13,038 nt of DNA from a virus, in the IMG/VR virus record IMGVR_UViG_2149837021_000077, positions 1 through 13,038 of that record, one strand, 5' to 3'. The position numbers and the translations under genes are program-made. The notes under the pieces were generated by a model, which saw only the letters and a program-made list of their open reading frames with translations, was not told the origin of the DNA and searched no databases. Each line of letters begins with the position of its first letter. Positions within the stretch are counted from its first letter, which is position 1. Shown here piece by piece: positions 480-12,979 of the stretch.

Positions 480-483
480 ATGA

Positions 484-511
484 AAATAGGAGGGCATAAA
501 CCCTCCTATTT
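484..511. terminator. bidirectional intrinsic terminator between convergent transcription units
   Basis: Perfect inverted repeat AAATAGGAGGG / CCCTCCTATTT (484-494 and 501-511) with loop CATAAA. T-rich runs follow on both strands (tctgttt on +, TTTTCATTTATT on -). The HNH TAG stop (506-508) lies inside the stem. Confidence 0.6.
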
Positions 512-829
512 CTGTTTAAATCTTTGATAATTACTAACCGATGAATGAATAGCTTTATGACAAACTGAACATAATGTTATTAAATCTTCCAAATGTTCCT
601 GCTCATTATATAAATTCTCATACGTCTTATGATGTACCGATAAAGACCTATTTCCGCCTTCCTGAACACATCAGTTACAAGTTTGGCAGTGGTAGTTATC
701 CCGCAATAATATTTGCTCTCTAATGGCCTTAAAATCCTTTGATCTTATATATCTTTGGTACTTTAAATATTCTTCACTTCTTACTTTCTTCTTTGTCTTA
801 TGAAGCAGTTTACTTGATTTGGAGTCCAT
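506..829 (-). CDS. HNH endonuclease, 107 aa, one in-frame TGA (671-673)
   Basis: Hand translation: MDSKSSKLLHKTKKKVRSEEYLKYQRYIRSKDFKAIREQILLRDNYHCQTCN[TGA]CVQEGGNRSLSVHHKTYENLYNEQEHLEDLITLCSVCHKAIHSSVSNYQRFKQK. It has CxxC...HH...N...CxxCHxxxH HNH/zinc-finger spacing. ATG 827-829 lies 2 nt after the endolysin TAA. This is the only CDS ending in TAG. It is absent from the ORF track because the TGA splits it. Confidence 0.75.
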
Positions 830-831
830 AA

Positions 832-1284
832 TTATATAATTGTAAATTTCTGTCTTCTCTGCAAACCCTCTTTATTCTTCAGTCCTAAATGAATTCAACT
901 AGCTATTCCATTTCTAGGTTTCTCATAAATAAGTTGATCAAAATCATACTTTTCAATAGCTTCAGTAATCCAAACCTGAAATTCTTTCATTTGGCCGTTA
1001 CTTGGAATTATATCTGCTGCATATCCTGTTAGATGGGCAGATGTCAAAGATCCTCCTACAGCTTTATTAAGCTCATTACATCTATAACCTGAATTCACAC
1101 TTATTGCTGGATTCCCCAACCGATTAACATCACAATACTCTGCCCAATCACTTCTTAATGGGTCTAAAAGTTTCTCGACTAACTCTATAAGGTGTTCAGT
1201 AATCTCTTTATTTGGAGTATTATCTATCTTCTTAATAGAAGCTGTATCAGATCTTGTTAATTCACTAATAGTAAAATATTTCAT
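832..1284 (-). CDS. peptidoglycan peptidase of the M15 (VanY / L-Ala-D-Glu peptidase-like) family, endolysin, 150 aa, one in-frame TGA (895-897)
   Basis: Track ORF 895..1284 carries SGYRCNELNKAVGGSLTSAHLTGYAADI (the SxHxxGxAxD Zn motif) and FDQLIYE. Reading through the TGA gives ...NGIAS[W]IHLGLKNKEGLQRRQKFTII, then TAA at 832-834. This restores the W-x-H motif holding the last Zn-ligand His of the family. Confidence 0.85.
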
Positions 1285-1298
1285 TATTTAATAATATC

Positions 1299-1445
1299 TT
1301 TAAGCATAGTATAACGGTAAAATAAATGACATCCTGCACCAAGTGCTATGAGTACTAATGTAATCCAAAATGGAATTACTTTTACCATTAAAAATACTAA
1401 GATTATAATTACTATTGCTATTAAATATTTCATCCAATATTTCAT
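1299..1445 (-). CDS. small two-TM membrane protein, 48 aa, holin candidate
   Basis: MKYWMKYLIAIVIIILVFLMVKVIPFWITLVLIALGAGCHLFYRYYYA has two hydrophobic segments separated by a Lys. ATG 1443-1445 and TAA 1299-1301. It sits directly upstream of the endolysin. It is not in the ORF track because it is too short. Confidence 0.5.
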
Positions 1446-1448
1446 AAC

Positions 1449-2102
1449 TTATTTATTTAAAATTATACTTACTTTAATTCCTGCATCTCTTAGTTTTACT
1501 CAAGTATCAACTGGCATCTCATTATCACAATAAGATAAGCCTAAAATTCCAATATCTCTATCTTCTGATTTTAAATAGAATATTGCAATCTTATTAACAT
1601 CATTAGATTTAAATGTATAATACATTCTTCTATCTAATTCCTTTATATCTTCAACATCTCCAAATCATCCTCCTTTTTTAGATGTTTCCAATATAAATAA
1701 ATAATCAGATAATAGGAAGTCTTTATAGTGACTTGAAACTGGAGCAACTCCAGGTTCTGTTTCTTCACTATTCATAATTCCATAAGTGAATGGTAATCCT
1801 CCTAATCCTGAAGTGCCATTATGATACTCAATAACTCAAGCTCTATCTGCATTCGTATCATTTAAAAGGTCTTTAAGGATATATCTAACCTTAAGATCCG
1901 CTTCTTGTCGTATTACTTGATTAGTATTATGAACTGTTTCTATATAACTTACAACTTTATCATATATTATTCCTGGATTAGTACTTATAATTATTACATA
2001 AGAAATAAATATAAATCCAAATCCACCTTTAATTATTTCCCACAGTCCATATTTATCTACTCATTCTAATACCTTTCCAAACCAGTTTAATTTATTTTCC
2101 AT
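1449..2102 (-). CDS. N-terminally membrane-anchored protein, 217 aa, four in-frame TGA (2061-2063, 1836-1838, 1665-1667, 1500-1502); function unknown, first gene of the lysis-proximal cluster
   Basis: Hand translation: MENKLNWFGKVLE[W]VDKYGLWEIIKGGFGFIFISYVIIISTNPGIIYDKVV...NADRA[W]VIEYHNGTSGLGGLPFTYG...TSKKGG[W]FGDVEDIKELDRR...EMPVDT[W]VKLRDAGIKVSIILNK, then TAA 1449-1451. The start ATG overlaps the upstream TAA (TAATG at 2100-2104). No TAA or TAG occurs in 654 nt of AT-rich DNA. It is invisible in the standard-code track. Confidence 0.65.
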
Positions 2103-2527
2103 TACATATTATCAGAACAAGTACCCAGAGTGTTGTCTACAGCTAAATCAACTCTAACAAATACTCCAGTGCAAATATCTTTGAACTTCTGATAAAATGG
2201 AGTAAAAATTAAAGGATAAGAAATATCAACTTCTGGATATTGGTTATTAAATCGGTTAATTATATTAGTTAATGCTAATATTCCAGCTGATTGCTCTTCA
2301 AGCTGATTATTATCAGTCTCATCCCATCTTGCTATAAAATAGAGATTTAAAGAGTAAGTAATAGTATCCTCATCCATATTAAATGTATTTGGAGTTATAT
2401 AAAATACATTATATTCAATAGTTGGGATACTATTAAGTTCATATATATCCTTACTTCCTACAAAATTAATATTGGGTTCTTCAAGAGCACAAGCTTTTAA
2501 ATTGTTTATTAATTCAAAATACGTCAT
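2102..2527 (-). CDS. hypothetical virion protein, 141 aa (possible neck or head-tail joining component, by position only)
   Basis: This is track ORF 2102..2629 trimmed to the ATG at 2525-2527 (MTYFELINNL...), which lies 1 nt after the upstream gene's TAA (2529-2531). The 34-aa N-terminal extension would overlap the upstream CDS. TAA at 2102-2104. Confidence 0.6.
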   Translation of the reverse strand: MTYFELINNLKACALEEPNINFVGSKDIYELNSIPTIEYNVFYITPNTFNMDEDTITYSLNLYFIARWDETDNNQLEEQSAGILALTNIINRFNNQYPEVDISYPLIFTPFYQKFKDICTGVFVRVDLAVDNTLGTCSDNM

Positions 2528-2528
2528 T

Positions 2529-3212
2529 TTACTTACTCTTTTTATTGTTATCACTTGAAGGGAAATCATAAGCTCTTTGCAGAGGACCTTCACAAGAATT
2601 ATATCTCCAACCTTTACCTCTAGCTCCACCTAACCAAATAGTGCAAGATGAACTTGAATACATATTTGGATACATATCTTTAAGAGGTTTATAAGAATAC
2701 AATTCAGGAAAATCATTATAATATGTAATTACCCAATTTTGCAATCTAGTTTTAAAGAAATCTGCTTTATCTCTATAATATTTCTTAATAAGATTAACTT
2801 GGCTAATATCAGAAGTTAAATCTTTCTCATCATCAGTCCTCATAACCCCAAAATTACTCAGCTTAAACGAAATAGGTATAGTAATCTCACTTAATACTTG
2901 ATAAAGTAAATAAGGCTGAATATAGTAATCTAGCAATTCTTTATATCTATGATTTTCTGGGTCATCTATTGAAGTAGGATCATAAATAGGAGGTTCTATT
3001 GGATGAACTGGTTTATTTGGATCTTTTCAATCAATTACTAATTTCTGAATCTTTTCTAAGAGCTTAGTTCCAATTAATGACTGAAGCTCAATATCTTGTG
3101 CAAGTTTAATTGCTGACTGAAGATATTTACCAGAAACATTATTGTCTAAATTGGATTCTGATTTTATATAATCTTCAGATATTAATAGTACATTTCTATA
3201 ATTATTTTCCAT
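2529..3212 (-). CDS. head-tail adaptor/connector-like protein, 227 aa, one in-frame TGA (3027-3029)
   Basis: Track ORFs 3027..3212 and 2529..2936 are in the same phase. The 90 nt between them translate without a stop (...KLVID[W]KDPNKPVHPIEPPIYDPTSIDDPENHRYKELLDYYIQ...). The M at 2936 in the track is an internal TTG (Leu). The start overlaps the portal stop (TAATG at 3210-3214). The function call rests on position after portal and an N-terminal ISEDYIK...AQDIELQSLIG pattern recalled from gp6-like connectors, which is weak evidence. Confidence 0.55.
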
Positions 3213-4294
3213 TATTCAACTTGTTTAGTATCAGCTTCATTAAGGCTAAATGGTGAAATTGTGATTGAATTCTGCATTCCAAAGATCTTATCAAATGAAT
3301 CACAAATCTCTTTCTGAATAGGTCTAATCATAGTTCTATTATAAAGCTTGAATGAAGATTCAAATTCTTGCTCATTAAAACCAGTTGAATCTGAGTTAAT
3401 TCCAAATAAGTTAGGATTAGCTCTGAAGGCACAGAATATTTGATCTCTGGTTCTCTCAGATAATGATTGATATTTCTCATCAAAATCATCAGAATCTAAT
3501 CTTTCAATAGTAGTCTTATTTGCCTCATCTGCATTATATGAAATCAATATTCTGCCAGCATTCTGATAACCAGAGAACTTCTCATTAATATTCCTCTCAA
3601 TCTCCTCTCTAATTTCATCTGTAGGTTCCCCATTATTAAAGTTAATAATAAGATTACCCATAAATCCATTATTGATGTTATTTAAATGGAATTCATTAAT
3701 ATTTTTCTCAGTTTCACAAGATAAAATAGCAGCTCCATAAACAGGAATAGGATATACTCCTCTTGTTATATAACCTTTATTATAAAATATACTAGCTGGA
3801 TTTTCATCCCCAGCTCCAAATTTTGGATATTTTATAGCTTTTACAGACCAAGCTGTCCAATCAGTTGCATAATATAATATATCATTCTTTTCGCTTGACC
3901 TTACATTCATAAAATCAATATGATATATCTCTGCAACTCTTCCGAGCATATCTCTAATTACTTGGATAGCATAACCTCCAAATATCATCTTATCAATAGT
4001 GATTTTTCTCATTATATCAACTATTGTTTCACCTTTCTTGTTTACAACTACTTCAAATCCTGGAGCATTACATTTAACATCGTTACCAACAATAAAGTCA
4101 GCAGAACCATTAATAATGGATTGGAGAGTGGCAACATTTAAATATAAATCCCATAGATATAATGGATATTTGTTATCTTCTCCCCACATTACATAATCTT
4201 TTCCCCTCACTTTAGTTTCTGTAGGTAATACGATATTACTTGCAATAAATGGATCAATAGCACTTAACTGAACTTTTGTTTTATTTTCGCTCAT
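3212..4294 (-). CDS. phage portal protein (HK97/PF04860-like), 360 aa
   Basis: Its layout matches portal family architecture as I recall it: WGEDNKYPLYLWDLYLNVATLQSIINGSADFIVG, GGYAIQVIRD...EIYHIDFMNVR, YPIPVYGAA, NGFMGNLIINFNNGEPTDEIREEIE...FSGYQNAGRILISY, DDFDEKYQSLSERTRDQIFCAFRANPNLFG, LYNRTMIRPIQ. It contains no TGA. Confidence 0.8.
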   Translation of the reverse strand: MSENKTKVQLSAIDPFIASNIVLPTETKVRGKDYVMWGEDNKYPLYLWDLYLNVATLQSIINGSADFIVGNDVKCNAPGFEVVVNKKGETIVDIMRKITIDKMIFGGYAIQVIRDMLGRVAEIYHIDFMNVRSSEKNDILYYATDWTAWSVKAIKYPKFGAGDENPASIFYNKGYITRGVYPIPVYGAAILSCETEKNINEFHLNNINNGFMGNLIINFNNGEPTDEIREEIERNINEKFSGYQNAGRILISYNADEANKTTIERLDSDDFDEKYQSLSERTRDQIFCAFRANPNLFGINSDSTGFNEQEFESSFKLYNRTMIRPIQKEICDSFDKIFGMQNSITISPFSLNEADTKQVE

Positions 4295-4673
4295 AACTTA
4301 CGTATGTATTAGGTTTGTCGTATTGATAATTATTATTCTCATAATCTCCAATTCTTATTAATCCTGTTCCCAATATAGGTATTGGTTTACCAGCAACTAA
4401 TATCTGAGTACCATTAGTAAGAGTATTATTATATGTAACCAGAATAACTGGATTGCCATATAACTCTGATCTAAATGGATTGTTTACATCAACTATAACT
4501 TGAAATTTATTTGGATTAGTAAATAAAATATATTGATATTCACCGTCTCTCATTCCTTCTTGAAGTGTAATATCAAACTTATAGTAGATATTCTCAGAAT
4601 AATTCTGATTTTCAAGATTAAATGTATAAACTTCTTTAGTAGTTGTATTTTGCATTAATAAAGTATAATTCAT
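4281..4673 (-). CDS. hypothetical protein, 130 aa
   Basis: Intact ORF ending in TAA that overlaps the portal start by 14 nt. It is the first gene after the 4750-4775 terminator hairpin. No recognisable motif. Confidence 0.55.
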   Translation of the reverse strand: MNYTLLMQNTTTKEVYTFNLENQNYSENIYYKFDITLQEGMRDGEYQYILFTNPNKFQVIVDVNNPFRSELYGNPVILVTYNNTLTNGTQILVAGKPIPILGTGLIRIGDYENNNYQYDKPNTYVSYERK

Positions 4674-4737
4674 ATTTTACAGCAATTTACATTAGTTTTA
4701 CATATCTTTTTCTTAAAATATAAACTAATTTACTAAT

Positions 4738-4775
4738 GTATTAAAATAATTAAAGGAGACCTAAGCCTCCTTTAA
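4738..4775 (-). terminator. intrinsic terminator downstream of the fibre locus
   Basis: Minus-strand transcript has TTAAAGGAG-GCTTAGGT-CTCCTTTAA (9-bp stem, 4750-4775) followed by TTATTTTAAT. It lies in the 153-nt intergenic gap 4674-4826. Confidence 0.5.
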
Positions 4776-4826
4776 TGTCAAGTTTTTTACTCACTCAAAG
4801 TACTAAGAAAAAATAAAAACTGACAA

Positions 4827-5849
4827 TTAGTTTGAACTTGCTAAAGTTCAGTTTTTAGATGCAGCTAATGATTTCTGTTCCTCAGTAAGTGCATTATAAA
4901 CATCTGCTGCAAATTGAATGGTTTGAGATACTTCTCCTGTTAAATCAGCAGCTTTATTTAGAATATTATCAATAGTCAAAGAATTAAGACTTGGCAGTTT
5001 ACTTAAATCTAAATACGTTTTTAACCCTACTATTCCTCCCATATCAGTTATATAAGTATTATCGGAAGATCAGCTATAAAATGGCCAATTAGAAAAGTTT
5101 TGTCCTGCTGCACTTATACTTGTAACATCTCATTCAGGAAGTTCAGTTATATTATCAGGTAATTGTTCATAGAATCCTCCTATTTCCATATTAATTACAT
5201 TACCCGTAATATTAAACTTCATAGTTGGTAATATTGTCACTCTATCTTTTTGAACTCCAGTAAACATACCAGACATATGAATTGAACACCTTGGTCTAGA
5301 ACTATTAAACTCAATTTCATTTACATTAATAACAGAGTATGCAAAAGTATTGGTAAAACTAGAATTACCATTCTCTTCAATAATAAATTTTTGAATTATT
5401 GGAGAACTGTCTTGTATTTGAGTATTATAAAAAGCAAAGTTAGCACTGCTACAATATATTTCTGCTGGAAATAAAATATCAGAACATTTGATTTGATAAA
5501 AAATATATTCTAAATCATAATTCAAAATATTAAATGTGCTATTTAAATTTATTGTTATGCCCTTTAAATTTGCGTCTTGAAAAAACCATTTTGTAGAACT
5601 AGGATCATCAAATGAATATGTAACATTATCATATTGCTCTTGTGTCATACTAGAATATGCAAGTGTTAATCCATAATCATTTAAATTAATCTTTCCTCCA
5701 CCACCTCCAGAAATCTGTCCTATCTTATCTGCATAGCTTCTAAAGGTATCTGAATCTGATACAGCAACACCTTTAGCTACAATAGCATCTTTAATGGCAC
5801 TCTTAGTACCTTCAAGATACGTTAATTTATCAGAAATTGTATTTGCCAT
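4827..5849 (-). CDS. tail fibre / receptor-binding protein paralogue 3, 340 aa, three in-frame TGA (5130-5132, 5070-5072, 4848-4850)
   Basis: Track ORFs 5130..5849 and 4848..5042 are in phase. The joining segment reads ...ELPE[W]DVTSISAAGQNFSNWPFYS[W]SSDNTYITDMGGIVGL... and the tail reads ...EEQKSLAASKN[W]TLASSN, then TAA 4827-4829. The N-terminal DKLTYLEGTKSAIKDAIVAKGVAVSDSDTFRSYADKIGQISGGGGG is typical of phage fibre N-termini. The C-terminal module is shared with the 6716 and 10464 genes. Confidence 0.7.
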
Positions 5850-5850
5850 A

Positions 5851-6474
5851 TTAGATTACTTCACCATTAATTGTATCAAGAGTAGTTGAAATATTACCAA
5901 TCTGAGCTTGAATTGCTGAGATTTCTCCATCTAACTCTGTCATCTTTGTATTATATGCATCTGTAGTTACATAGTTTGATAACTCACTTTTATCTGCTTT
6001 AAGTGCAACTTCATCTTTAGTAGCTAATCCAGATACATCAGGAATCTTATTCTCTACAGCTGTAAGTTCTTCTTTAGTAGCAAAATCACTAGTATCAGGA
6101 ATTTCTGCTTTAGTTGCATAATTACTTAAATCTACAGATAGTTGCAAACCTTCTCCATTTCTATGTAAAGATAGAGGTTGATTAGCTTGGAATACTTCCC
6201 CTTTAAGATTAGTAATCTCAGTATTAATTGGAACAAGCTTAGCATCTCTAGATTGATCTACTAAAGGAGGAACTTGATCTTCAATACTTTCTGTTACTTT
6301 AGTATTAATTAACTCTTCTGCTTTCTCTTCAGAAATGTAATTACCTTTAGGTTGGAATCTTTCATCTGCTTCAATCTTAGTATAAGAACCAACAGGAAGT
6401 TGTCCAGATTCAATACCACATTTCTTACTTACATAAAAAGTTTGTGTATTTTTAGTGTTCTTAAGTATAATCAT
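5851..6474 (-). CDS. coiled-coil tail fibre protein, 207 aa
   Basis: It has repeated xxYATKxE(L/V)-type heptad-like motifs (LSVDLSNYATKAEIPDTSDFATKEELTAVENKIPDVSGLATKDEVALKADKSELSNYV). It shares LSVDLS(N/T)YAT with the 800-aa fibre. It is tightly packed (TAA then ATG on both sides). Confidence 0.7.
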   Translation of the reverse strand: MIILKNTKNTQTFYVSKKCGIESGQLPVGSYTKIEADERFQPKGNYISEEKAEELINTKVTESIEDQVPPLVDQSRDAKLVPINTEITNLKGEVFQANQPLSLHRNGEGLQLSVDLSNYATKAEIPDTSDFATKEELTAVENKIPDVSGLATKDEVALKADKSELSNYVTTDAYNTKMTELDGEISAIQAQIGNISTTLDTINGEVI

Positions 6475-6476
6475 AA

Positions 6477-6713
6477 TTATCTAACTTTTATTGATTCCTC
6501 ATACTCTTTAGAAGCTTTAATAGCTAATTCTTTATATTCAGCATCCTTATCTAAAGAGACTTCTGATAGATGCTCTAAATAGCAACTTAAAGGACAGATA
6601 CATTCAGTAAATGAACTGTATAATTTAATATCCATTCCTTCTTTATAGTTAGTAAGTACATAACCTTCTTCTGGACTAACTACTTTATATTTTTCTTTAA
6701 TTTCAATTTTCAT
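6477..6713 (-). CDS. small fibre-associated protein, 78 aa, paralogue of 10243..10464 (possible fibre chaperone or adaptor)
   Basis: This is track ORF 6477..6740 trimmed to ATG 6711-6713 (MKIEIKEKYKVV...), 2 nt after the upstream TAA (6716-6718). The core PEEGYVLTNYKEGMDIKLYSSFTECICPL aligns with SDEGYFITSYKEGDDIKEYSASTILYCPL of the other copy (16 of 29 identical by hand). Confidence 0.6.
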   Translation of the reverse strand: MKIEIKEKYKVVSPEEGYVLTNYKEGMDIKLYSSFTECICPLSCYLEHLSEVSLDKDAEYKELAIKASKEYEESIKVR

Positions 6714-6715
6714 AA

Positions 6716-7837
6716 TTATGCAACTCGATTTATACTTCAATTCTTTGAAGCTATTAATGATTTCTGTTCACTTGTTAATTTATCATATGCAGTAGATTTG
6801 AATGATATACTTGTATAAGAGGCTACTGCTGTGCCAATAGATTCAGCTATAGTTTGTAATGAATCTGTAGATAGATTTGGAGATTGTGCAAAATAAAGAA
6901 CGCCTCCTTTAGTTAAACTCTCTCCTAATCCATTTAAAGCTCCTACAGTTACTAATTCTGGACAAGATGCCGCAAAACTAGTACAATCTGTAACAAGATG
7001 GCAATCTATTTCTGGTGTAGCTATTAACCTACTACAAGTACTAAACATATAGCTTATATCTGTAATTCCAGTAAAGGTAAAATTACTTGGAATAGTTGTT
7101 AGATATAATGCTCTATGAAACATATGATTACAATCTCCTTTAAATGGAATATTAATCGTTATATTATCTATATTAGTAGCTCCATCACTAGTTTCTGCAA
7201 ATGCCCATTTTGGATCTACTAATACAAGATTTTGAAAATTATTCATTACAGAGAAATCATTATTATCTATTTTTACTCCAATAAATAAATAATTTGCACT
7301 TACTTCTTTAGTAGTTGTAGGTATTTTAACATTAGATAAAGTAGCACTATGTATTATTTGACCCCAAAATTGAGATTCATTAGCCCATCGTCCATATGCT
7401 TCATTAAGATTAGTAATCTCCTGGTTATTTAGATCAAAATGAGATGTTTTAAAAAACCCTCCTTTTTTACTTAAATCTCCACTATTTAACTTTACATCTG
7501 CATATGTTTGAGCAGAACCTATAATACTACAAAGAGGTACACCATCTATATTAAGGGCTAATTCACTTAAATCAGCAGTGAAGCTAATTACTGTAGAATT
7601 AGAACCAGATCCTCTACCCATTCAATCCCTTTGTATATCATTTATAGTTCCATCATAACTGCTAAATACATAACTGCAAGGATCAACTATTGTAGTACCT
7701 TGAGGAACTGGATTAGCAACTGTAACTATTTGTGGATTACAAGGATTGATAGGCCAGACTTTGGTACTGCCGACATAAATAGCAGTACCTTGTCTGTCGC
7801 CTACATAAAATGTTTTTAAATCATCTCTAATATTCAT
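6716..7837 (-). CDS. BspA-like leucine-rich-repeat tail fibre / receptor-binding protein paralogue 2, 373 aa, two in-frame TGA (7622-7624, 6737-6739)
   Basis: Track ORFs 7622..7837 and 6737..7621 are contiguous and in phase (…DIQRD[TGA]MGRGSGS…). The tail reads …SEQKSLIASKN[W]SINRVA, then TAA 6716-6718. LRR-like repeats are present (CNHMFHRALYLTTIPSNFTFTGITDISYMFSTCSRLIATPEIDC...). The N-terminal FYVGDRQGTAIYVGSTKVWPI is fibre-like. The 5' boundary is less certain because the TGA is followed directly by ATG. Confidence 0.65.
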
Positions 7838-7838
7838 A

Positions 7839-10241
7839 TTATTCTACAATTAAATATTGTGTATTAGGATCTTTAGTTGATAAACCATCATACTCTGATT
7901 GAGTTAGAACAGTAATAGTATTTATTTGAGGTTGGGTTCCAGTTCCAGCTTCAATATAGTTTCCAGCAGGCTGAATACCTAAATCTGATAAACTCTTATT
8001 GCCAGATAACTCAACAGAATTAATCTGAGGTTTATTTGTTAACTGAGTATAGTCAGTAGTCCCTCCACCTCCAGATATTTCAAGATTACCTTCTCCTAAA
8101 ATACTTTCACCATTAATAGTCTTTATATTAGTCCCAGAGACTAATTGCTCCTGATAACTATGATAACTAGTATCTGCTGATACTCCAGTTGGAGTAATAG
8201 TAGTTTGAACTACAGTATGATTAGCTGTAGTACTTTCAAAATGGAAAATAGCTTGAATATTTTCTCCTGAAACAAAACATACTTCTGGAGCTGCTATATC
8301 ACCATAACCTAGAATATTTACATAATAAAGCTCAAATGGTGTTTTATTAGCTATAGCATTCTTAACAGCAGCGAAATCTCCAGAAAGATGAGTAGTGGAA
8401 TTTATAAATAGAAATGGAATATTAGAACCACTTTCAATTTCTATATTACCTTCTCCAAGTAAAGACTGACTATTGATTGTTTTGATATTAGTTCCACTTA
8501 CAAGTAAATCTTGCTTAGTAGCCATCTCTTTATCAAGTGAATCAATCTTATTTCCATCTTCTTCTTGCTTTGTTTTAATAATTGATATGTCTGAAGTATT
8601 AGTTGCTACTTGAGTAGATAAAGATTCTACCACAGAAGAATCAGCTTTACCAGCAAGTTCTGTTTTTGTTGCATAATCTCCTACAGGCTGTTTAGTAGCA
8701 AGCTGCTCATCAACATAAGTCTTATCTGCTTTACCTGCTAAATCTCCAGAAACCTCTGCTTCAGTTACAAAGTTAGAATCATTAGTAAGCTCACTAACTT
8801 TAGTTGGAATATCACTCTTTAAAGCATAATCTCCTTTATCTTGTTTTAGATCTATTTTTCCTTCTAAAGAAGTTTCTAATGTATTAACCTTATCATTAGT
8901 TGCATAAGTAGATAAATCTACAGATAATTGAGTCTTATCTTCATTAAAAGCTAATGGAGCTTGAGGAGCAAATACTCCTTGTTTTTCCTCAAGTTTGGCA
9001 TCTACTTCTTCTTTAGTATATCCTTTATTAATAAGATCAATCTCAGTAACTTTAACAGTCATATTACCATTATTTACTAAGATTGCATTAATAACTACTA
9101 ATACATCATTATCTTGGAAATAATAGCCATATAAATCAATAGTTTCAGGATGTTCAATAGTTGCAACAGGAATAACTATAATATCACCTTTATATGTAAT
9201 CTGGCAGAATAAATAGAAGTCCAGATTAGTTCTAATAAAGTCATAGATATGTTTCTGTCTTACAGGATCATTCTCATCTAAATTAAGTAAGAAATGATTC
9301 TCAAAAGCAGAGATTACATTATCTATAATAGATATATTCTTTCCTGCTGTAAGCGTTCCCTGTTTTGAAGCTATCTCTTTATTAATAGCTGTATTTAAAG
9401 CATCAATTTCAGCTTTGGTATATTTATCTGCTAATTGTGCGTATAGAGGGCCATTAACAATACCAGCTTGGTTAGTCTCTGTATTATATATTGGAAGTTC
9501 AACTGCTTCTCCAGTTTGATTACCAAATACAGGAGCTAAAGTAACTTTAGATGGGACTGATTGAATATTAATGGCAGGTACGATTGAAGCTGCTCCAGAT
9601 AATTCAGTTCCATTTAAAGATGGTTTGTTACGAATAGTATTATAATCTGCAGAAATAGTATTCTCTTCAATTACTATACCATCACCTTGGTTTAATTTAT
9701 TCTGTTTAGAATTTATTGCACTTTCAGTAGCTTCTTTTGTAAGATAATTATCTTCAACTCATTTTTCAGTAGCATATCCATCTAAGCTACTAATAAACCC
9801 ACTATCATTAGTTAATTGTGAAGTTTTTGTTGGTATCTCAGATTTATCAGCTTTATTGGCAACTGCATCTGAAATTTCATTTGTAACCTCTTCTTTAGTC
9901 GGATAATCAGCTAATCATTCAGTTATCTGATTATCAATATTTTCAGCACTTGGAATAGTACTCTTTATTTGCTCTAACTCAGAATTAATAGTAACAATAT
10001 CTTCAGATGACGCTAATCCCAACTCTTCCGAAGTCATATTACCATTTAACTCAATACTATTGATCTCAGGTTTATCCTGAAGATCAAAATAGCTATTAGT
10101 AGCTAACTGAGAACCATCCATAACCTTAACTTCATCATCCTTGTCAATAACAATAACTTTAGTCACATTTGACTTATCTATTGTTTCAACTTCAAGGACA
10201 TTAAGATAAGGAAGAATTGTCTTTTCAGTTTCGTTTGCCAT
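7839..10241 (-). CDS. long tail fibre protein, 800 aa, two in-frame TGA (9915-9917, 9759-9761)
   Basis: Track ORFs 9915..10241 and 7839..9062 are in phase. I translated all of 9063-9914 and found no TAA or TAG. Downstream of the TGA at 9759-9761, the 696 nt 9063-9758 are open with no ATG, GTG or TTG, which is why the track starts at 9062. Contexts are ...NQITE[W]LADYPTKEEV and ...GYATEK[W]VEDNYLTKE. Fibre motifs recur: NKPxINxxELxGN x3 and SGTNIKTINxxSxLGEGNxEI x2. Confidence 0.75.
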
Positions 10242-10242
10242 A

Positions 10243-10464
10243 TTATTTATTTTTATAAGATTCCTCTTGTTCTTTTAAATATCTTTCATTTGTTTCTGCA
10301 TCAATAACCCTATAAATAGATGTATCAAAGGTTAAAGGGCAATATAAAATAGTTGATGCACTATACTCTTTAATATCATCACCTTCTTTATATGAGGTGA
10401 TAAAATATCCTTCATCAGAGTATAACTTTATAAATATGCTAGTTTCAATATGTAAATGTTCCAT
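10243..10464 (-). CDS. small fibre-associated protein, 73 aa, paralogue of 6477..6713
   Basis: Intact ORF ending in TAA. Its start overlaps the upstream stop (TAATG at 10462-10466). It shares the EGYxxTxYKEGxDIKxYS...CPL core with the other copy. Confidence 0.65.
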   Translation of the reverse strand: MEHLHIETSIFIKLYSDEGYFITSYKEGDDIKEYSASTILYCPLTFDTSIYRVIDAETNERYLKEQEESYKNK

Positions 10465-11417
10465 TATGCTAATACCCAGTTTTTATTAGTAGCTATTTCT
10501 TTCTGTTTATCTGATAATTTTGCCAGATTGGTAGCTCCTAATGTTAAAGTTTTGCTATCCTCTCCAGTTAAATCAACCAATGCATTAATAACAGACATTA
10601 AAGAATCAGTAGTAAGATTGGTACTTGCTGATAGATATAATCCTGCTCTAAGTTCACCGTTTACTGTAATATTAGTAATTCCACCACATTTTGAAAATAT
10701 AGGATTTATTGAACTTTCTTGAGATGTGTATGATGGAATGTTTAATGTTACATCTGTTAATCTAATGCAATCTCCAAACATATTAGTAGTAGTTACTAAT
10801 TTAGGAGCGTCTAAATTAAGTGTTTTCAGGCTATTATATCCATATAAGGTACCTCTGCTAAACATATTAGACCCATCTGTTAATTCAGGCATTGGAATAG
10901 TGAATGATGTTAAATCAGCACATTCTGTAAACATATGTCTGCCATCTTCTAATTTAGGCAATTGCATAGTGAACTCCTTAATGTTTGATCTTTGACATTT
11001 ATATCTTCCATCAACTAAATTTTCTCAACCTACAACATTTGCAGGAACAGATGTTCCCGTAAACCTATATAAATTAACTACAGCTTGCGTAATATCATAA
11101 GTTGAAGAAGTTGGCACATTAATAGTAGCTTCAACTTTCTCCATAACATCATAATTAGAGTCAGGAAGAATCTCTATTGGTCCATTCTGAGTAATTGTAA
11201 TTGCTTTGGAAGCTTGAACTGTAGGAACTACTACATCAACAGATACATTTACCTTAGACATTCCATCATATCCCTCATCTGGCAGTACTTCAAACTCTGC
11301 ATTTTGAGTATATTCTACTGATTTTTCTTGTAACTTACATTCAGCAGCTTTAATTAAATCTAAATTTTTAGTTGTAGTATTTTTAGCTACTGGTTCTGAT
11401 GTGAATACTATTGCCAT
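10464..11417 (-). CDS. BspA-like leucine-rich-repeat tail fibre / receptor-binding protein paralogue 1, 317 aa, one in-frame TGA (11025-11027)
   Basis: Track ORFs 11025..11417 and 10464..10967 are in phase and the joint reads ...PANVVG[W]ENLVDGRYKCQRSNIKEFTMQLPKLEDG.... The N-terminus has a duplicated motif (EVLPDEGYDGMSKVNVSV and EILPDSNYDVMEKVEATINVP). The C-terminus has MFxxCxxLT-type LRRs and ends ...SDKQKEIATNKNWVLA, with the W as TGG at 10476-10478. Confidence 0.75.
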
Positions 11418-11460
11418 ATTATTTTTCTATAAAATATAAATTATTCATTATGTGGTATAT

Positions 11461-11497
11461 AAACAAAATAAGGGGCAAGTAAATTAATACTCGCCCC
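11461..11497 (-). terminator. intrinsic terminator after the capsid / 174-aa gene pair
   Basis: Minus-strand transcript has GGGGCGAGU-AUUAAUUU-ACUUGCCCC (9-bp stem including one G-U, 11472-11497) followed by UUAUUUUGUUU. It lies about 10 nt after the TAA at 11509-11511. Confidence 0.65.
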
Positions 11498-11508
11498 TCT
11501 TTCTGTTA

Positions 11509-12033
11509 TTAAGCACCTACAACGCTTTGGATAGCTTCTGCAGATAACTCATAAGGATAAGAGTCTGAATCTGTTGAAAGTGTCAGAGTATAAGCATTCT
11601 GATCACCTTTAGCAGTACCAGTAACACCCGTACCAGCGGAAGCGCTTACATAATCATCTTTACCTAAGAACCAATACTTACCATTGCTATCTTCAACAAC
11701 AACTGCAAGCTGACCAATTGATAAAGCTGCAATCTCTACTCGTTTTGCTGTTTCCATCTTTGTAAATACAAGAGCAAGCTCATTACTTACATAATTAACA
11801 CCAGCACTTTCATCTACATTTAAAGTTGAGGTTAGAGAACCAGTAGCCTTTCTAAATTGGTAGTTATACCATTTAGCTGAAGACTCAAGAGTAATAGCTG
11901 AAATCATATTGCTCTCAGGATCAACCGTTACACTTTTAACATCTGCATACTGGGTAATCCATACCTGTTTGATTCCACCCAATGAAGGTTGGCAATCAAG
12001 TGTGATTCCTGCGATAGTTATTAAACAAGCCAT
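11509..12033 (-). CDS. conserved virion protein, 174 aa, possibly a major tail / tube-like protein
   Basis: Intact ORF with no TGA, directly downstream of the capsid gene and upstream of a strong terminator. The pattern GGIKQVWITQY...YQFRKATGSLTSTL...ELALVFTKM...NGKYWFLG...TGTAKGDQNAYTLTL resembles small tail-tube proteins, from memory only. The CDS call is firm but the function is tentative. Confidence 0.6.
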   Translation of the reverse strand: MACLITIAGITLDCQPSLGGIKQVWITQYADVKSVTVDPESNMISAITLESSAKWYNYQFRKATGSLTSTLNVDESAGVNYVSNELALVFTKMETAKRVEIAALSIGQLAVVVEDSNGKYWFLGKDDYVSASAGTGVTGTAKGDQNAYTLTLSTDSDSYPYELSAEAIQSVVGA

Positions 12034-12073
12034 AATTTCAATATCATTTAGAAGTTAATAAAATCTATTGAAA

Positions 12074-12979
12074 TTAAGCCTTGGCGCCTAATACTACTTC
12101 GTCAGGGAAAGCAACTTGTACACCAGCGTTAAATTCAATAGCTAATCTGAACTCGCGGAAATCCTGTGAATACCACAATTCGAATTTCTCTTCATCGTTC
12201 ATCATATCTACACCATAGAAGAAGTTCTTGTCTAACTGACCAGCAACAATCTTATCAGTTCCATTAAGACCATTAACAGCAATAACCTTAACCTGTGAAC
12301 CAGGAAGATAAATCTCACCATTAAGGCTCTCTCCGCTATAGTGGAAATAGTTCTTCTCAACAAGTTCATTTACGAACTTACGGAACATATCAGCACCAAC
12401 AAGAATAGAAGCACCATCAAGAACCTTCTCAGGAATTGCATTATAAACTGCCATAATGTCAGTATAGGCAGATGTTCCAGCAATTGTTACATCTACAGTA
12501 CCAGCATCAGCAGCAAGAATCTTAAGCAGACCATCAAAATACTTCAAGTTATTAGTTTCTGAAGCCGTATCACCCTGCCAGATAGCTATCTCAATAGCCT
12601 CTTTTACGTTCTCTACAACAGCATTTACGAAATCCTCTTCAAAAGGAAGAGTCTTCTGACCAGCGGCTACCTTAACTGCATACTGAGTCCAGTATTTCAG
12701 CATAGCCTTATCGCAATATGCCATATTAATCTTAATATTACCAGTCTTAAGAATTCTCTGAGAAAGAGTCTGAGTTCCAGCCTCATCCCAACCACAAGTA
12801 AGACCATCACCGAACTGAACATCGGTAGATAACAGGTTAAGAGCAGCATCAGTTTTAATATCTGTCTGAAGATTAAACAAACTTGCACTCTTAGCTTTTA
12901 AAACCGCTTCCTTAATAAGAGGGAGACGTCTTTGCTCCACATAAGCAGGAAGAGTTGTCATTACAGGACTATTTGCCAT
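12074..12979 (-). CDS. major capsid protein, HK97-fold family, 301 aa
   Basis: Intact ORF ending in TAA. Its layout is typical of HK97-like capsid proteins (…IWQGDTA…YFDGLLKIL…, C-terminal …KFELWYSQDFREFRLAIEFNAGVQVAFPDEVVLG). All four Trp are TGG and it has no TGA. Confidence 0.8.
   Translation of the reverse strand: MANSPVMTTLPAYVEQRRLPLIKEAVLKAKSASLFNLQTDIKTDAALNLLSTDVQFGDGLTCGWDEAGTQTLSQRILKTGNIKINMAYCDKAMLKYWTQYAVKVAAGQKTLPFEEDFVNAVVENVKEAIEIAIWQGDTASETNNLKYFDGLLKILAADAGTVDVTIAGTSAYTDIMAVYNAIPEKVLDGASILVGADMFRKFVNELVEKNYFHYSGESLNGEIYLPGSQVKVIAVNGLNGTDKIVAGQLDKNFFYGVDMMNDEEKFELWYSQDFREFRLAIEFNAGVQVAFPDEVVLGAKA

What the first reader, a model, noticed from the sequence alone, without database searches (positions are those of the whole stretch)
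832..1284. Endolysin activity depends on TGA read-through: the last catalytic His lies 2 codons after the TGA
With standard decoding the M15 peptidase stops at ...NGIAS (895-897). That product lacks the C-terminal W-I-H segment, and in this family that His completes the Zn site begun by the H-x6-D motif (SAHLTGYAAD). A truncated protein should therefore be inactive. Cell-wall hydrolysis would then be licensed only once TGA suppression is active in the infected cell. This fits the published proposal that recoding gates lytic functions. The upstream 217-aa membrane protein carries four more TGAs.
Basis: partly seen in the sequence, partly recalled or inferred. Interest (0 to 1): 0.7.

Follow-up and report, generated by a model that had tools for sequence, protein, structure and literature searches.

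The report
TGA-as-tryptophan phage endolysin gene
The cell-wall-cutting enzyme of this roughly 31-kb gut phage is complete only if the stop codon TGA is read as tryptophan, but most of the phage's genes share that dependence, so this is a clear new example of a published phenomenon, not a switch specific to this enzyme.

Summary
The minus-strand gene 1284..832 encodes a 150-codon Peptidase_M15_3 (LAS-fold) endolysin. Codon 130 is an in-frame TGA (897-895) at an invariant Trp. The invariant His132 (891-889), the inferred third Zn ligand, lies two codons downstream. All 32 related contigs carry this TGA.

- The window belongs to a roughly 31-kb phage family that reads TGA as Trp genome-wide. About 60% of genes carry in-frame TGA, including terminase, tape measure and fibres.
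- Endolysin TGA use is not significantly above the family background (BH p = 0.076).
- The adjacent 53-aa holin-like gene never uses TGA.
- The major capsid, protease, portal and a helicase-like gene avoid TGA.
- The 217-aa membrane protein is strongly TGA-biased (BH 2e-6). Its model resembles T4-type class III holins, so it is the better candidate for a translational lysis gate.
- No suppressor tRNA was found anywhere in the reconstructed genome or in about 60 related loci, so the source of TGA decoding is unknown.
- Indirect evidence points to a standard-code Bacteroidota host.

Verdict: a new member of a known kind (stop-codon-recoded gut phages, Borges et al.), of moderate interest.

The parts
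832..1284 (-). Endolysin CDS: 150 codons plus TAA. Peptidase_M15_3 / LAS zinc peptidase, with TGA read as Trp at codon 130.
   Evidence: Translation. Pfam PF08291. phrog_894. AF2 pLDDT 96. Foldseek 1LBU/hedgehog/VanY/LdcB. 150-aa homologues at up to 99% identity in public data.
895..897 (-). In-frame TGA, codon 130, at the invariant Trp.
   Evidence: W is invariant in 34 homologues. TGA in 17 of 17 unique and 32 of 32 family loci.
889..891 (-). CAT, His132: inferred third Zn ligand.
   Evidence: Invariant. Lies in predicted strand 130-134. Fits the LAS consensus H-X(3-6)-D-X(n)-H (PMC4087270). Metal binding itself was not tested.
1012..1035 (-). H84-x6-D91 motif (SAHLTGYAAD): first two Zn ligands.
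   Evidence: Aligned to H154...D161 of 1LBU by phmmer and by profile. Invariant.
1284..1445 (-). 53-aa protein with two hydrophobic stretches that look like transmembrane segments (holin-like). Its stop overlaps the endolysin start (TAATG). It has no TGA.
   Evidence: Sequence. 0 TGA and 23 TGG across 12 unique family sequences. No family hit.
1449..2102 (-). 217-aa membrane protein with an N-terminal TM helix and a GAF-like domain. Four in-frame TGAs (2063-2061, 1838-1836, 1667-1665, 1502-1500). Candidate T4-type class III holin or lysis regulator.
   Evidence: TGA positions. TGA fraction 0.71 in the family, BH 2e-6. AF2 pLDDT 71. Foldseek: GAF domains, 6pxe_F (T4 holin T/RI complex), BFVD 'Class III holin' and 'T holin' entries. 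No sequence-level match to T4 gp t.
506..829 (-). HNH homing-endonuclease-like gene directly after the endolysin. One in-frame TGA (673-671) inside C-x-x-C-N-W-C.
   Evidence: Pfam PF01844. PHROG HNH families. TGA position.
483..512 (-). Terminator-like hairpin plus T-run that ends the long minus-strand operon. The plus-strand genes converge here.
   Evidence: sequence.
2102..12979 (-). The rest of the same-strand structural gene string. Major capsid 12979-12074 and the 174-aa gene 12033-11509 are TGA-free. Then come leucine-rich-repeat-like (by eye) proteins and tail fibres with TGAs, portal 4294-3212, and a gene at 3212-2529 that is the counterpart of the relative's DUF6712 gene. This is the context showing that TGA = Trp is used widely.

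Best explanation
The window is part of a roughly 31-kb tailed phage from gut metagenomes, probably of a Bacteroidota host. Its genome uses TGA as an ordinary tryptophan codon (genetic code 4).

The endolysin is a 150-residue LAS/M15_3 zinc peptidase. Its invariant Trp130 happens to be written TGA. The functional product is the full-length protein, with the Zn site formed by H84, D91 and H132. If TGA were read as stop, the 129-residue product would lack H132 and two core strands and would be inactive.

This dependence on TGA decoding is real, but most of the virion and lysis genes share it, so the endolysin codon is not a dedicated switch. If recoding does time lysis in this phage, the better candidate for the gate is the neighbouring 217-aa T-holin-like membrane protein, which carries 4-5 TGAs.

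Shown: the anatomy, the code, the conservation, the fold and the codon statistics.
Inferred: inactivity of the truncated form, the host, and any regulatory role.
Unknown: what decodes TGA, because the phage has no tRNA gene.
For: - Code. Coverage by stop-to-stop open reading frames of at least 100 codons is 0.74 under code 11 and 0.91 under code 4. 10 of about 17 window genes and 24 of 39 ORFs of the reconstructed genome carry in-frame TGA. Across family alignments, TGA columns are shared with TGG 698 times, Tyr 150, Phe 104 and Gly 35, so TGA means Trp and not Gly.
- Enzyme.
- Generality. Terminase, tape measure, fibres and a 1119-aa tail protein (10 TGAs) are all recoded.
- The endolysin is not special. 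BH p = 0.076, W47 is always TGG and W105 is mixed.
- The holin-like gene is TGA-free, while the TM protein has BH 2e-6 and a T-holin/GAF-like fold.
- Host clues. The nearest cultured endolysins come from Bacteroides phages and crAss-like phages. Capsid relatives sit in Bacteroidales-binned MAG contigs and in one Chitinophagaceae prophage. There is no Shine-Dalgarno signal (6 of 39 genes against 11% at random). BACON hits are weak.
- A standard-code sister lineage has the same GC content and no TGA at all (L043). This fits the published route to recoding.
Against: - No suppressor tRNA was found: ARAGORN at default and permissive settings, and Rfam at E<=1, over the whole reconstructed genome and about 60 loci. 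Decoding in a standard-code host is therefore unexplained.
- The W130 TGA is fixed in all family members, including two divergent C-terminal variants. This could reflect selection and not only descent.
- The host was never identified directly.
- The holin assignment of the 217-aa protein rests on a pLDDT-71 model and on TM-scores of 0.4-0.6, with no sequence similarity.
Confidence: 0.65

Rival explanations
1. The TGA in the endolysin is maintained by selection as a translational lock. Early in infection host RF2 terminates at codon 130, giving an inactive stub. Active enzyme appears only once a phage-induced TGA-suppression state is established, and this times lysis.
For: - The gating idea is published for recoded phages (Borges et al., bioRxiv 10.1101/2021.08.26.457843).
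- The TGA at W130 is fixed in 17 of 17 unique sequences, across recombinant C-terminal variants.
- The neighbouring TM protein is strongly TGA-biased.
- A helicase-like putative early gene is TGA-free (1 of 64 Trp codons).
- The probable host uses the standard code.
Against: - Endolysin TGA use is not significantly above background (BH 0.076).
- The holin-like gene has no TGA.
- A cytoplasmic endolysin is not dangerous without a holin (established holin-endolysin model).
- The late, highly expressed capsid, protease and portal genes avoid TGA, while small ORFs and a GIY-YIG gene in the putative early block contain it. There is therefore no clean early/late partition.
- No code-change machinery was found: no tRNA, and no release-factor or Trp-tRNA-synthetase family hit among the proteins that were scanned.
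- The +4 context of TGA and TGG codons does not differ (p = 0.36).
Confidence: 0.2
2. The host itself reads TGA as Trp, either as a native code-4 bacterium or through a chromosomal tRNA-Trp(UCA). TGA is then an ordinary sense codon at all times and nothing is gated.
For: - No phage tRNA exists anywhere in a complete-length genome.
- A second, unrelated large phage that shares a fibre segment with this family is also heavily TGA-recoded.
- The +4 context gives no sign of competition with RF2.
Against: - As far as I know, the code-4 bacteria described so far are wall-less Mollicutes and insect endosymbionts, whereas this phage carries a peptidoglycan peptidase and a holin-like gene.
- Only about 60% of genes carry TGA. 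This is within the 26-71% reported for phages of standard-code hosts and below the roughly 90% reported for phages of recoded hosts.
- The most highly expressed genes avoid TGA completely (capsid 0 of 156).
- Sister lineages use the standard code.
- The relatives and the translation-initiation signature point to Bacteroidota.
Confidence: 0.12
3. The TGA is a sequencing or assembly error, or the gene is a decaying pseudogene.
For: Some public gene callers output 129-aa and 127-aa truncated proteins.
Against: - The same TGA is present in 32 independent contigs from several sources.
- The downstream 20 codons are conserved and in frame.
- The genome-wide TGA pattern falls at Trp positions.
Confidence: 0.01

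Closest known systems
Stop-codon-recoded gut phages (TGA to Trp, code 4), as surveyed by Borges et al. (bioRxiv 10.1101/2021.08.26.457843); among the small clades Garnet, Amethyst and Topaz (22-34 kb)
   Same: - Low GC (about 0.29).
- TGA is absent as a stop in the sister lineage and is used as Trp here.
- In-frame TGAs lie in structural and lysis genes.
- A TM protein of the lysis cassette, the homing endonucleases and a tail protein are the most TGA-biased families, as reported for Agate phages.
- Close standard-code relatives exist.
- No detectable suppressor tRNA, as in about 65% of the code-4 genomes in that survey.
   Different: - Membership of a named clade could not be tested, because no reference sequences were at hand.
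- The capsid protein has no match in 50,697 GenBank phage records.
- The major capsid, protease and portal genes are TGA-free, so 'structural genes are recoded' holds only in part.
- The endolysin itself is not preferentially recoded.
Peptidase_M15_3 / LAS zinc peptidases: Streptomyces albus DD-carboxypeptidase (1LBU), E. coli/Klebsiella YcbK (MepK), and the endolysins of Bacteroides phage B124-14 and of crAss-like phages
   Same: - H-x6-D plus a C-terminal His.
- Hedgehog/DD-peptidase fold.
- 45-52% identity to the endolysins of Bacteroides phages and crAss-like phages.
   Different: - The position two residues before the last His is Trp (W-x-H), not the catalytic His of the H-x-H motif in 1LBU. 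The general base is therefore elsewhere and was not identified.
- That Trp is written TGA.
T4 holin T (class III holin), with antiholin RI
   Same: The 217-aa protein has the same length, a single N-terminal TM helix and a large C-terminal globular domain. It lies next to the endolysin. Foldseek matches 6pxe_F and BFVD entries named 'Class III holin' and 'T holin'.
   Different: - No sequence similarity (hhalign probability 0.1%).
- No Pfam, NCBIfam or annotated PHROG hit.
- Generic GAF domains match better.
- The model confidence is moderate (pLDDT 71).
Programmed UGA read-through (for example the Q-beta A1 protein)
   Same: A C-terminal extension is made only when UGA is decoded. UGA is typically read by tRNA-Trp.
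   Different: Classical read-through is a low-frequency event at one stop codon and gives two functional products. Here TGA is a sense codon at dozens of conserved Trp positions across the genome, with up to 10 per gene, which requires efficient decoding.

Membership tests
Peptidase_M15_3 (PF08291) / LAS zinc peptidase | Profile match above the curated threshold | tested here: met
   53.5 bits against a cut-off of 23.2, E 3e-14. phrog_894 endolysin, E 2e-30.
Peptidase_M15_3 (PF08291) / LAS zinc peptidase | H-X(3-6)-D zinc motif | tested here: met
   H84-x6-D91 aligns with H154-x6-D161 of 1LBU and is invariant.
Peptidase_M15_3 (PF08291) / LAS zinc peptidase | Third zinc ligand: a His C-terminal to the H-x-D motif | tested here: met
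   H132 is the only invariant His downstream and lies in predicted strand 130-134. The D-to-H spacing is 41, against 33 in YcbK. The His lies after the TGA.
Peptidase_M15_3 (PF08291) / LAS zinc peptidase | Hedgehog/DD-peptidase fold | tested here: met
   AF2 pLDDT 96.1, pTM 0.90. Foldseek top hit 1LBU (E 4e-5), followed by hedgehog N-domains, VanY, LdcB and LysB4.
Peptidase_M15_3 (PF08291) / LAS zinc peptidase | Zn-dependent peptidoglycan hydrolysis; loss of activity in the 129-aa form | not testable with these tools
   Needs enzyme assays.
Code-4 (TGA=Trp) recoded phage of a standard-code host (Borges et al.) | Many genes interrupted by TGA; coding density restored when TGA is read as sense | tested here: met
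Code-4 (TGA=Trp) recoded phage of a standard-code host (Borges et al.) | TGA aligns with Trp in homologues (not Gly, which would be code 25) | tested here: met
   TGG 698, against Gly codons 35, in shared alignment columns. W130 is invariant in standard-code homologues.
Code-4 (TGA=Trp) recoded phage of a standard-code host (Borges et al.) | Phage-encoded TGA suppressor tRNA or other code-change machinery | tested here: not met
   No tRNA in the window, in the reconstructed 31.1-kb genome or in about 60 family loci. The one low-threshold 'tRNA(tca)' is the antisense of a Trp codon. No RF or TrpRS family hit among the proteins scanned. The published survey also finds a tRNA in only 35% of code-4 genomes, so this feature is frequent and not obligatory.
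Code-4 (TGA=Trp) recoded phage of a standard-code host (Borges et al.) | The host uses the standard code | tested here: inconclusive
   Only indirect evidence for Bacteroidota. No CRISPR or prophage link for this family.
Code-4 (TGA=Trp) recoded phage of a standard-code host (Borges et al.) | Early genes in the standard code, late and lysis genes recoded; lysis genes preferentially recoded | tested here: inconclusive
   - Helicase-like gene 1 of 64; TM protein 0.71 (BH 2e-6).
- But capsid 0 of 156, protease 4 of 56, portal 0.11, holin-like 0 of 23, endolysin BH 0.076.
- Small ORFs of the putative early block do contain TGA.
T4-type class III holin (for the 217-aa protein) | About 218 aa, one N-terminal TM helix, a large C-terminal globular domain, encoded in the lysis cassette | tested here: met
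   Gene order: TM protein, 53-aa protein, endolysin.
T4-type class III holin (for the 217-aa protein) | Sequence or profile similarity to holin T | tested here: not met
   hhalign probability 0.1%. No Pfam hit at E<=0.1.
T4-type class III holin (for the 217-aa protein) | Fold of the periplasmic domain like that of T | tested here: inconclusive
   6pxe_F: E 2.5e-4, TM 0.41/0.53. BFVD 'Class III holin' and 'T holin' entries: E 2e-4 to 7e-3. GAF domains score better. Model pLDDT 71.

The most novel reading that the evidence does not exclude
A complete 31-kb phage with no tRNA gene, infecting a standard-code Bacteroidota host, makes TGA a Trp codon by a mechanism that does not involve a phage tRNA. 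Examples would be inactivation of host RF2, or alteration of host tRNA-Trp by one of its TGA-free early proteins. It would use the resulting delay as a translational clock on a T-like holin (4-5 TGAs) and on the endolysin (the TGA before the last Zn ligand).
Probability: 0.12. Interest if true: 0.75.

Novelty: new member of a known kind. Interest (0 to 1): 0.4.

Why it matters
- It is an unusually clean and testable example of a recoded lysis enzyme. One TGA separates the first two zinc ligands from the third, so the two readings of the codon predict an all-or-none difference in activity.
- The family is small (about 31 kb), abundant in public data and mosaic, and it has a standard-code sister lineage. 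It lacks any detectable suppressor tRNA. That makes it a compact system for asking how such phages get TGA decoded and whether recoding really times lysis.
- On the practical side, standard-code gene callers truncate this enzyme to 127-129 aa and mislabel it. Endolysin mining from gut viromes therefore needs code-aware annotation.

Tried and rejected
1. Hidden suppressor tRNA. ARAGORN at default settings, with introns, at the 80% threshold and in mitochondrial mode, and Rfam at E<=1 over the window plus two loci spanning the whole genome, all found nothing credible. A low-threshold 'tRNA-SeC(tca)' at window 2992-3089 has a counterpart 'tRNA-Trp(cca)' in a relative. It is a badly paired structure whose 'anticodon' is simply the antisense of a Trp codon (TGA or TGG) in the DUF6712-like gene. 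Rejected.
2. RF2-avoidance context. The base after TGA and after TGG Trp codons does not differ (chi-square p = 0.36).
3. Prophage in a 148-kb IMG/VR contig as a route to the host. The contig turned out to be a junction between this phage and a large, unrelated, TGA-recoded phage, joined at a shared fibre segment. It contains no host DNA.
4. A GenBank relative of that large phage (MT835470.1) uses the standard code and has no tRNA. Uninformative.
5. Megablast of the window, and tblastn of the capsid protein, against 50,697 phage records: no match.
6. Sequence-based annotation of the 217-aa protein with Pfam, NCBIfam, a PDB profile search and hhalign against T4 gp t gave nothing; PHROGs gave only a weak match to an unannotated family.
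7. Code 25 (TGA = Gly) and TAG recoding: rejected.

Full report
**1. The observation**

The minus strand of window 1284..832 reads ATG...NGIAS-TGA-ATT-CAT...TAA.
- Codon 130 is TGA (897-895) and codon 132 is CAT, His (891-889). The true stop is TAA at 834-832.
- H84 (1035-1033) and D91 (1014-1012) form SAHLTGYAAD.
- With TGA read as Trp the product is 150 aa. It matches Pfam Peptidase_M15_3 at 53.5 bits against a cut-off of 23.2, and PHROG 894 'endolysin' at E 2e-30.
- Public protein collections hold the same protein at up to 99% identity in two forms. Gene callers that allowed TGA give 150 aa. Callers that did not give 129 or 127 aa.
- In an alignment of 34 homologues, including standard-code Bacteroides and Achromobacter phage endolysins, W130 and H132 are invariant, as are S65, R68, N73, G78, S82, H84, G87, A89 and D91.

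The feature is therefore real and in frame, and it is not a chance stop.

**2. The enzyme**

- Both phmmer and a profile search align residues 43-96 with Streptomyces albus DD-carboxypeptidase 1LBU. This places H84 and D91 on H154 and D161 of that chain. From my own recollection these are two of its zinc ligands, with His197 as the third.
- The AF2 model built on 31 homologues has pLDDT 96.1.
- Foldseek returns 1LBU first (E 4e-5), followed by hedgehog N-domains, VanY, LdcB and LysB4. This is the LAS, or hedgehog/DD-peptidase, fold.
- The LAS zinc consensus is H-X(3-6)-D-X(n)-H (PMC4087270). In YcbK, another M15_3 protein, the proposed ligands are H169, D176 and H209 (PMC3927764).
- H132 is the only invariant His after D91 and lies in predicted strand 130-134. 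I take it as the third ligand.
- A product that ends at S129 would lack H132 and also strands 130-134 and 145-149. Loss of activity is a strong inference but was not measured.
- The position two residues before the last His is Trp, not the catalytic His of the H-x-H motif in 1LBU. The general base of this subfamily remains unassigned.

**3. The surroundings: TGA is a genome-wide sense codon**

- In the window, 10 of about 17 minus-strand genes carry in-frame TGA. They include an 800-aa fibre, three proteins that look leucine-rich-repeat-like by eye, the HNH gene, and the 217-aa membrane protein with four TGAs.
- Coverage by stop-to-stop open reading frames of at least 100 codons is 0.74 with TGA as a stop and 0.91 with TGA as sense. 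TAG reassignment gives no comparable gain.
- I fetched about 60 related loci from IMG/VR and Logan assemblies and joined two of them into a 31,115-bp circular-order reconstruction.
- 24 of its 39 ORFs contain TGA. Among them are the large terminase, the tape measure protein, and a 1119-aa tail protein with weak BACON hits and 10 TGAs.
- Across family alignments, the codons that share a column with TGA are TGG (698), Tyr (150), Phe (104) and Gly (35). TGA therefore means Trp, which is code 4 and not code 25.

**4. Is the endolysin special?**

- Family-wide, TGA makes up 0.34 of Trp codons.
- In a per-family Mann-Whitney test of the kind used by Borges et al., the TGA-preferring families are:
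  - a tail fibre;
  - a 53-aa ORF in the divergent block;
  - the 217-aa membrane protein (mean 0.69, BH 2e-6);
  - the NUMOD3 and GIY-YIG homing endonucleases;
  - the tape measure protein.
- The endolysin is not significant (0.44, BH 0.076).
- The TGA-avoiding families are the major capsid protein (0 of 156), the next 174-aa gene (1 of 93), the protease (4 of 56), the portal (0.11), the helicase-like 573-aa protein (1 of 64) and the 53-aa holin-like gene (0 of 23).
- Within the endolysin, W130 is TGA in all 17 unique sequences (32 loci), W47 is always TGG, and W105 is mixed. One of its two invariant Trp codons is thus fixed in each spelling. This looks like inheritance and not a drive towards TGA.
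- The base following TGA and following TGG codons does not differ (p = 0.36).
- The gene is translationally coupled to the holin-like gene (TAATG overlap). It lies near the end of a long same-strand string of structural genes that ends at a terminator-like hairpin at 512-483.

**5. The 217-aa membrane protein**

- It has sequence homologues only inside the family.
- It has no hit in Pfam, NCBIfam or any annotated PHROG family.
- Its AF2 model (pLDDT 71) shows N-terminal helices that include one hydrophobic span, followed by an alpha/beta domain.
- Foldseek against the PDB gives GAF domains. At rank 25 it gives chain F of 6PXE, the complex of the periplasmic domains of T4 holin T and antiholin RI (E 2.5e-4).
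- Foldseek against BFVD gives phage proteins of about 200-250 aa labelled 'GAF domain-containing'. It also gives proteins of crAss-like, Polaribacter and Tenacibaculum phages, and entries named 'Class III holin' (Proteus phage Stubb) and 'T holin lysis mediator'.
- The length, the single N-terminal TM helix, the large C-terminal domain and the position in the lysis cassette all match T4 holin T.
- Profile comparison with T4 gp t finds nothing.
- I treat 'T-like holin or lysis regulator' as a lead, at roughly even odds.
- If it is correct, the strongest TGA bias in the lysis cassette sits on the timer and not on the enzyme. This parallels the strongly recoded TM protein that Borges et al. describe in the lysis cassette of Agate phages.

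**6. What decodes TGA?**

No tRNA gene was found, as follows.
- ARAGORN found none in the window, in the two loci that span the genome or in about 60 relatives.
- Rfam at E<=1 gave only one sub-threshold snoRNA match.
- Permissive ARAGORN runs gave only poorly paired structures inside genes. One 'tRNA(tca)' is the antisense of a Trp codon.
- No family related to release factors or Trp-tRNA synthetase was hit among the proteins scanned.

Borges et al. likewise detected TGA suppressor tRNAs in only 35% of code-4 genomes. The absence is therefore typical but still unexplained.

**7. Host**

The evidence is indirect.
- The closest cultured endolysins are from Bacteroides phages (B124-14 group, 48-52% identity) and crAss-like phages.
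- A 51%-identical cellular homologue lies next to a BACON-domain gene.
- Capsid relatives in GTDB genomes are mostly whole-phage-sized contigs binned with Bacteroidales. One is a true prophage in a 269-kb Chitinophagaceae contig. A few sit in Lachnospiraceae, Coprococcus or Methanosphaera bins.
- Genes lack Shine-Dalgarno motifs: 6 of 39, against 11% at random positions. From my own knowledge this is typical of Bacteroidota.
- As far as I know, the natively code-4 bacteria described so far lack peptidoglycan or are insect endosymbionts.
- The share of genes with TGA (about 60%) lies inside the 26-71% reported for phages of standard-code hosts.
- A syntenic sister lineage (L043: capsid 66% identical, GC 0.28) has no TGA at all, either as a stop or as sense, and carries a different endolysin. 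This matches the published 'stop-codon depletion first, then recoding' path.

I put a standard-code Bacteroidota host at about 0.8.

**8. Comparison with what is known, and verdict**

- The enzyme is an ordinary member of the M15_3/LAS family.
- The coding is that of the stop-codon-recoded gut phages of Borges et al. The gating idea is theirs.
- The claim that hydrolysis is licensed specifically through this codon is not supported. The dependence is shared by most genes, the endolysin is not enriched for TGA, and the holin-like gene has none. The agent of suppression is unknown.
- The lineage itself appears undescribed, because there is no capsid match among GenBank phages.
- Novelty: new member of a known kind. 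Interest: 0.4.
- The residual interest lies in a complete small genome that has no suppressor tRNA, and in the TGA-rich T-holin-like gene.

Noticed in passing
window 11509-12979 (minus strand): The major capsid gene and the 174-aa gene after it have GC 0.38-0.40, against about 0.28 for the equivalent genome. They contain no TGA: 0 of 156 and 1 of 93 Trp codons across 39 and 32 unique family sequences. This fits avoidance of a poorly decoded codon in the most highly expressed genes, or host-like codon use.
   Followed up: partly
window 832-1284; loci L064-L082: The endolysin is mosaic within the family. One N-terminal half is combined with at least two very different C-terminal halves (…IIPSNGQMKEF…ASWIHLGL… and …LQNVSGSREEF…SQWVHIAL…), with breakpoints at different places (for example L073, L077). 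Every variant keeps TGA at the W-x-H Trp.
   Followed up: partly
L080/L108 (IMGVR_UViG_3300045988_175865); L106-L116: A 148-kb contig joins this phage to a large phage known from 85-171-kb contigs (GC about 0.32). That phage is also heavily TGA-recoded (for example 23 TGAs in one 1078-aa protein with collagen-like Gly-X-Y runs, seen by eye). Its 1542-aa fibre gene covers a stretch of about 440 nt that is 93% identical to the 31-kb family's fibre. Two unrelated TGA-recoded phages thus seem to exchange receptor-binding modules, probably on the same host.
   Followed up: partly
L043 (IMGVR_UViG_3300029905_000019): A syntenic sister phage (capsid 66% identical, same GC 0.28) uses the standard code and has no TGA at all in its 22 called genes, either as a stop or in frame. 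It carries an unrelated 153-aa endolysin in place of the M15 enzyme.
   Followed up: partly
L002 (crAss-like phage cr114_1, NC_055897.1 59723-60118): The homologous endolysin of this crAss-like phage has three in-frame TAG codons. One lies directly before the first zinc-ligand His (…GGSKTS*HCLGEAAD…). The same enzyme family is therefore interrupted by the other recoded stop in a TAG-recoded lineage.
   Followed up: no
window 506-829; composite genome 7423-8085 and 13187-13675: Homing-endonuclease-like genes (HNH after the endolysin; NUMOD3 and GIY-YIG in relatives) are present or absent between close relatives. They are among the most TGA-rich genes, as reported for an intron endonuclease in Agate phages.
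   Followed up: partly
window 4827-11417 (minus strand): The receptor-binding region looks like a repeated cassette. A protein that looks leucine-rich-repeat-like by eye (11417-10464, 7837-6716, 5849-4827) is followed by a small paralogous ORF of about 75 aa (10464-10243, 6713-6477) and then a fibre (10241-7839, 6474-5851). This region is the most mosaic part of the family.
   Followed up: no
proteins P0026-P0043, P0055-P0067, P0081, P0087-P0102: Public annotation pipelines that use the standard code truncate this endolysin to 129 or 127 aa and name it 'YcbK (DUF882 family)' or 'putative chitinase'.
   Followed up: no
composite genome 11274-12995 (homologous region lies just outside the window's left end): The only recognisable replication-type protein is a 573-aa protein with helicase-like motifs seen by eye (GxGGTS, DEYH). 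It has only a sub-threshold Pfam Helicase_C_2 hit and no PHROG or NCBIfam hit, and it is essentially TGA-free. The genome seems to have a very small replication module.
   Followed up: partly
all gene starts of the composite genome: No Shine-Dalgarno-like motif is enriched upstream of the start codons (6 of 39 against 11% at random). G is depleted at positions -25 to -1.
   Followed up: yes
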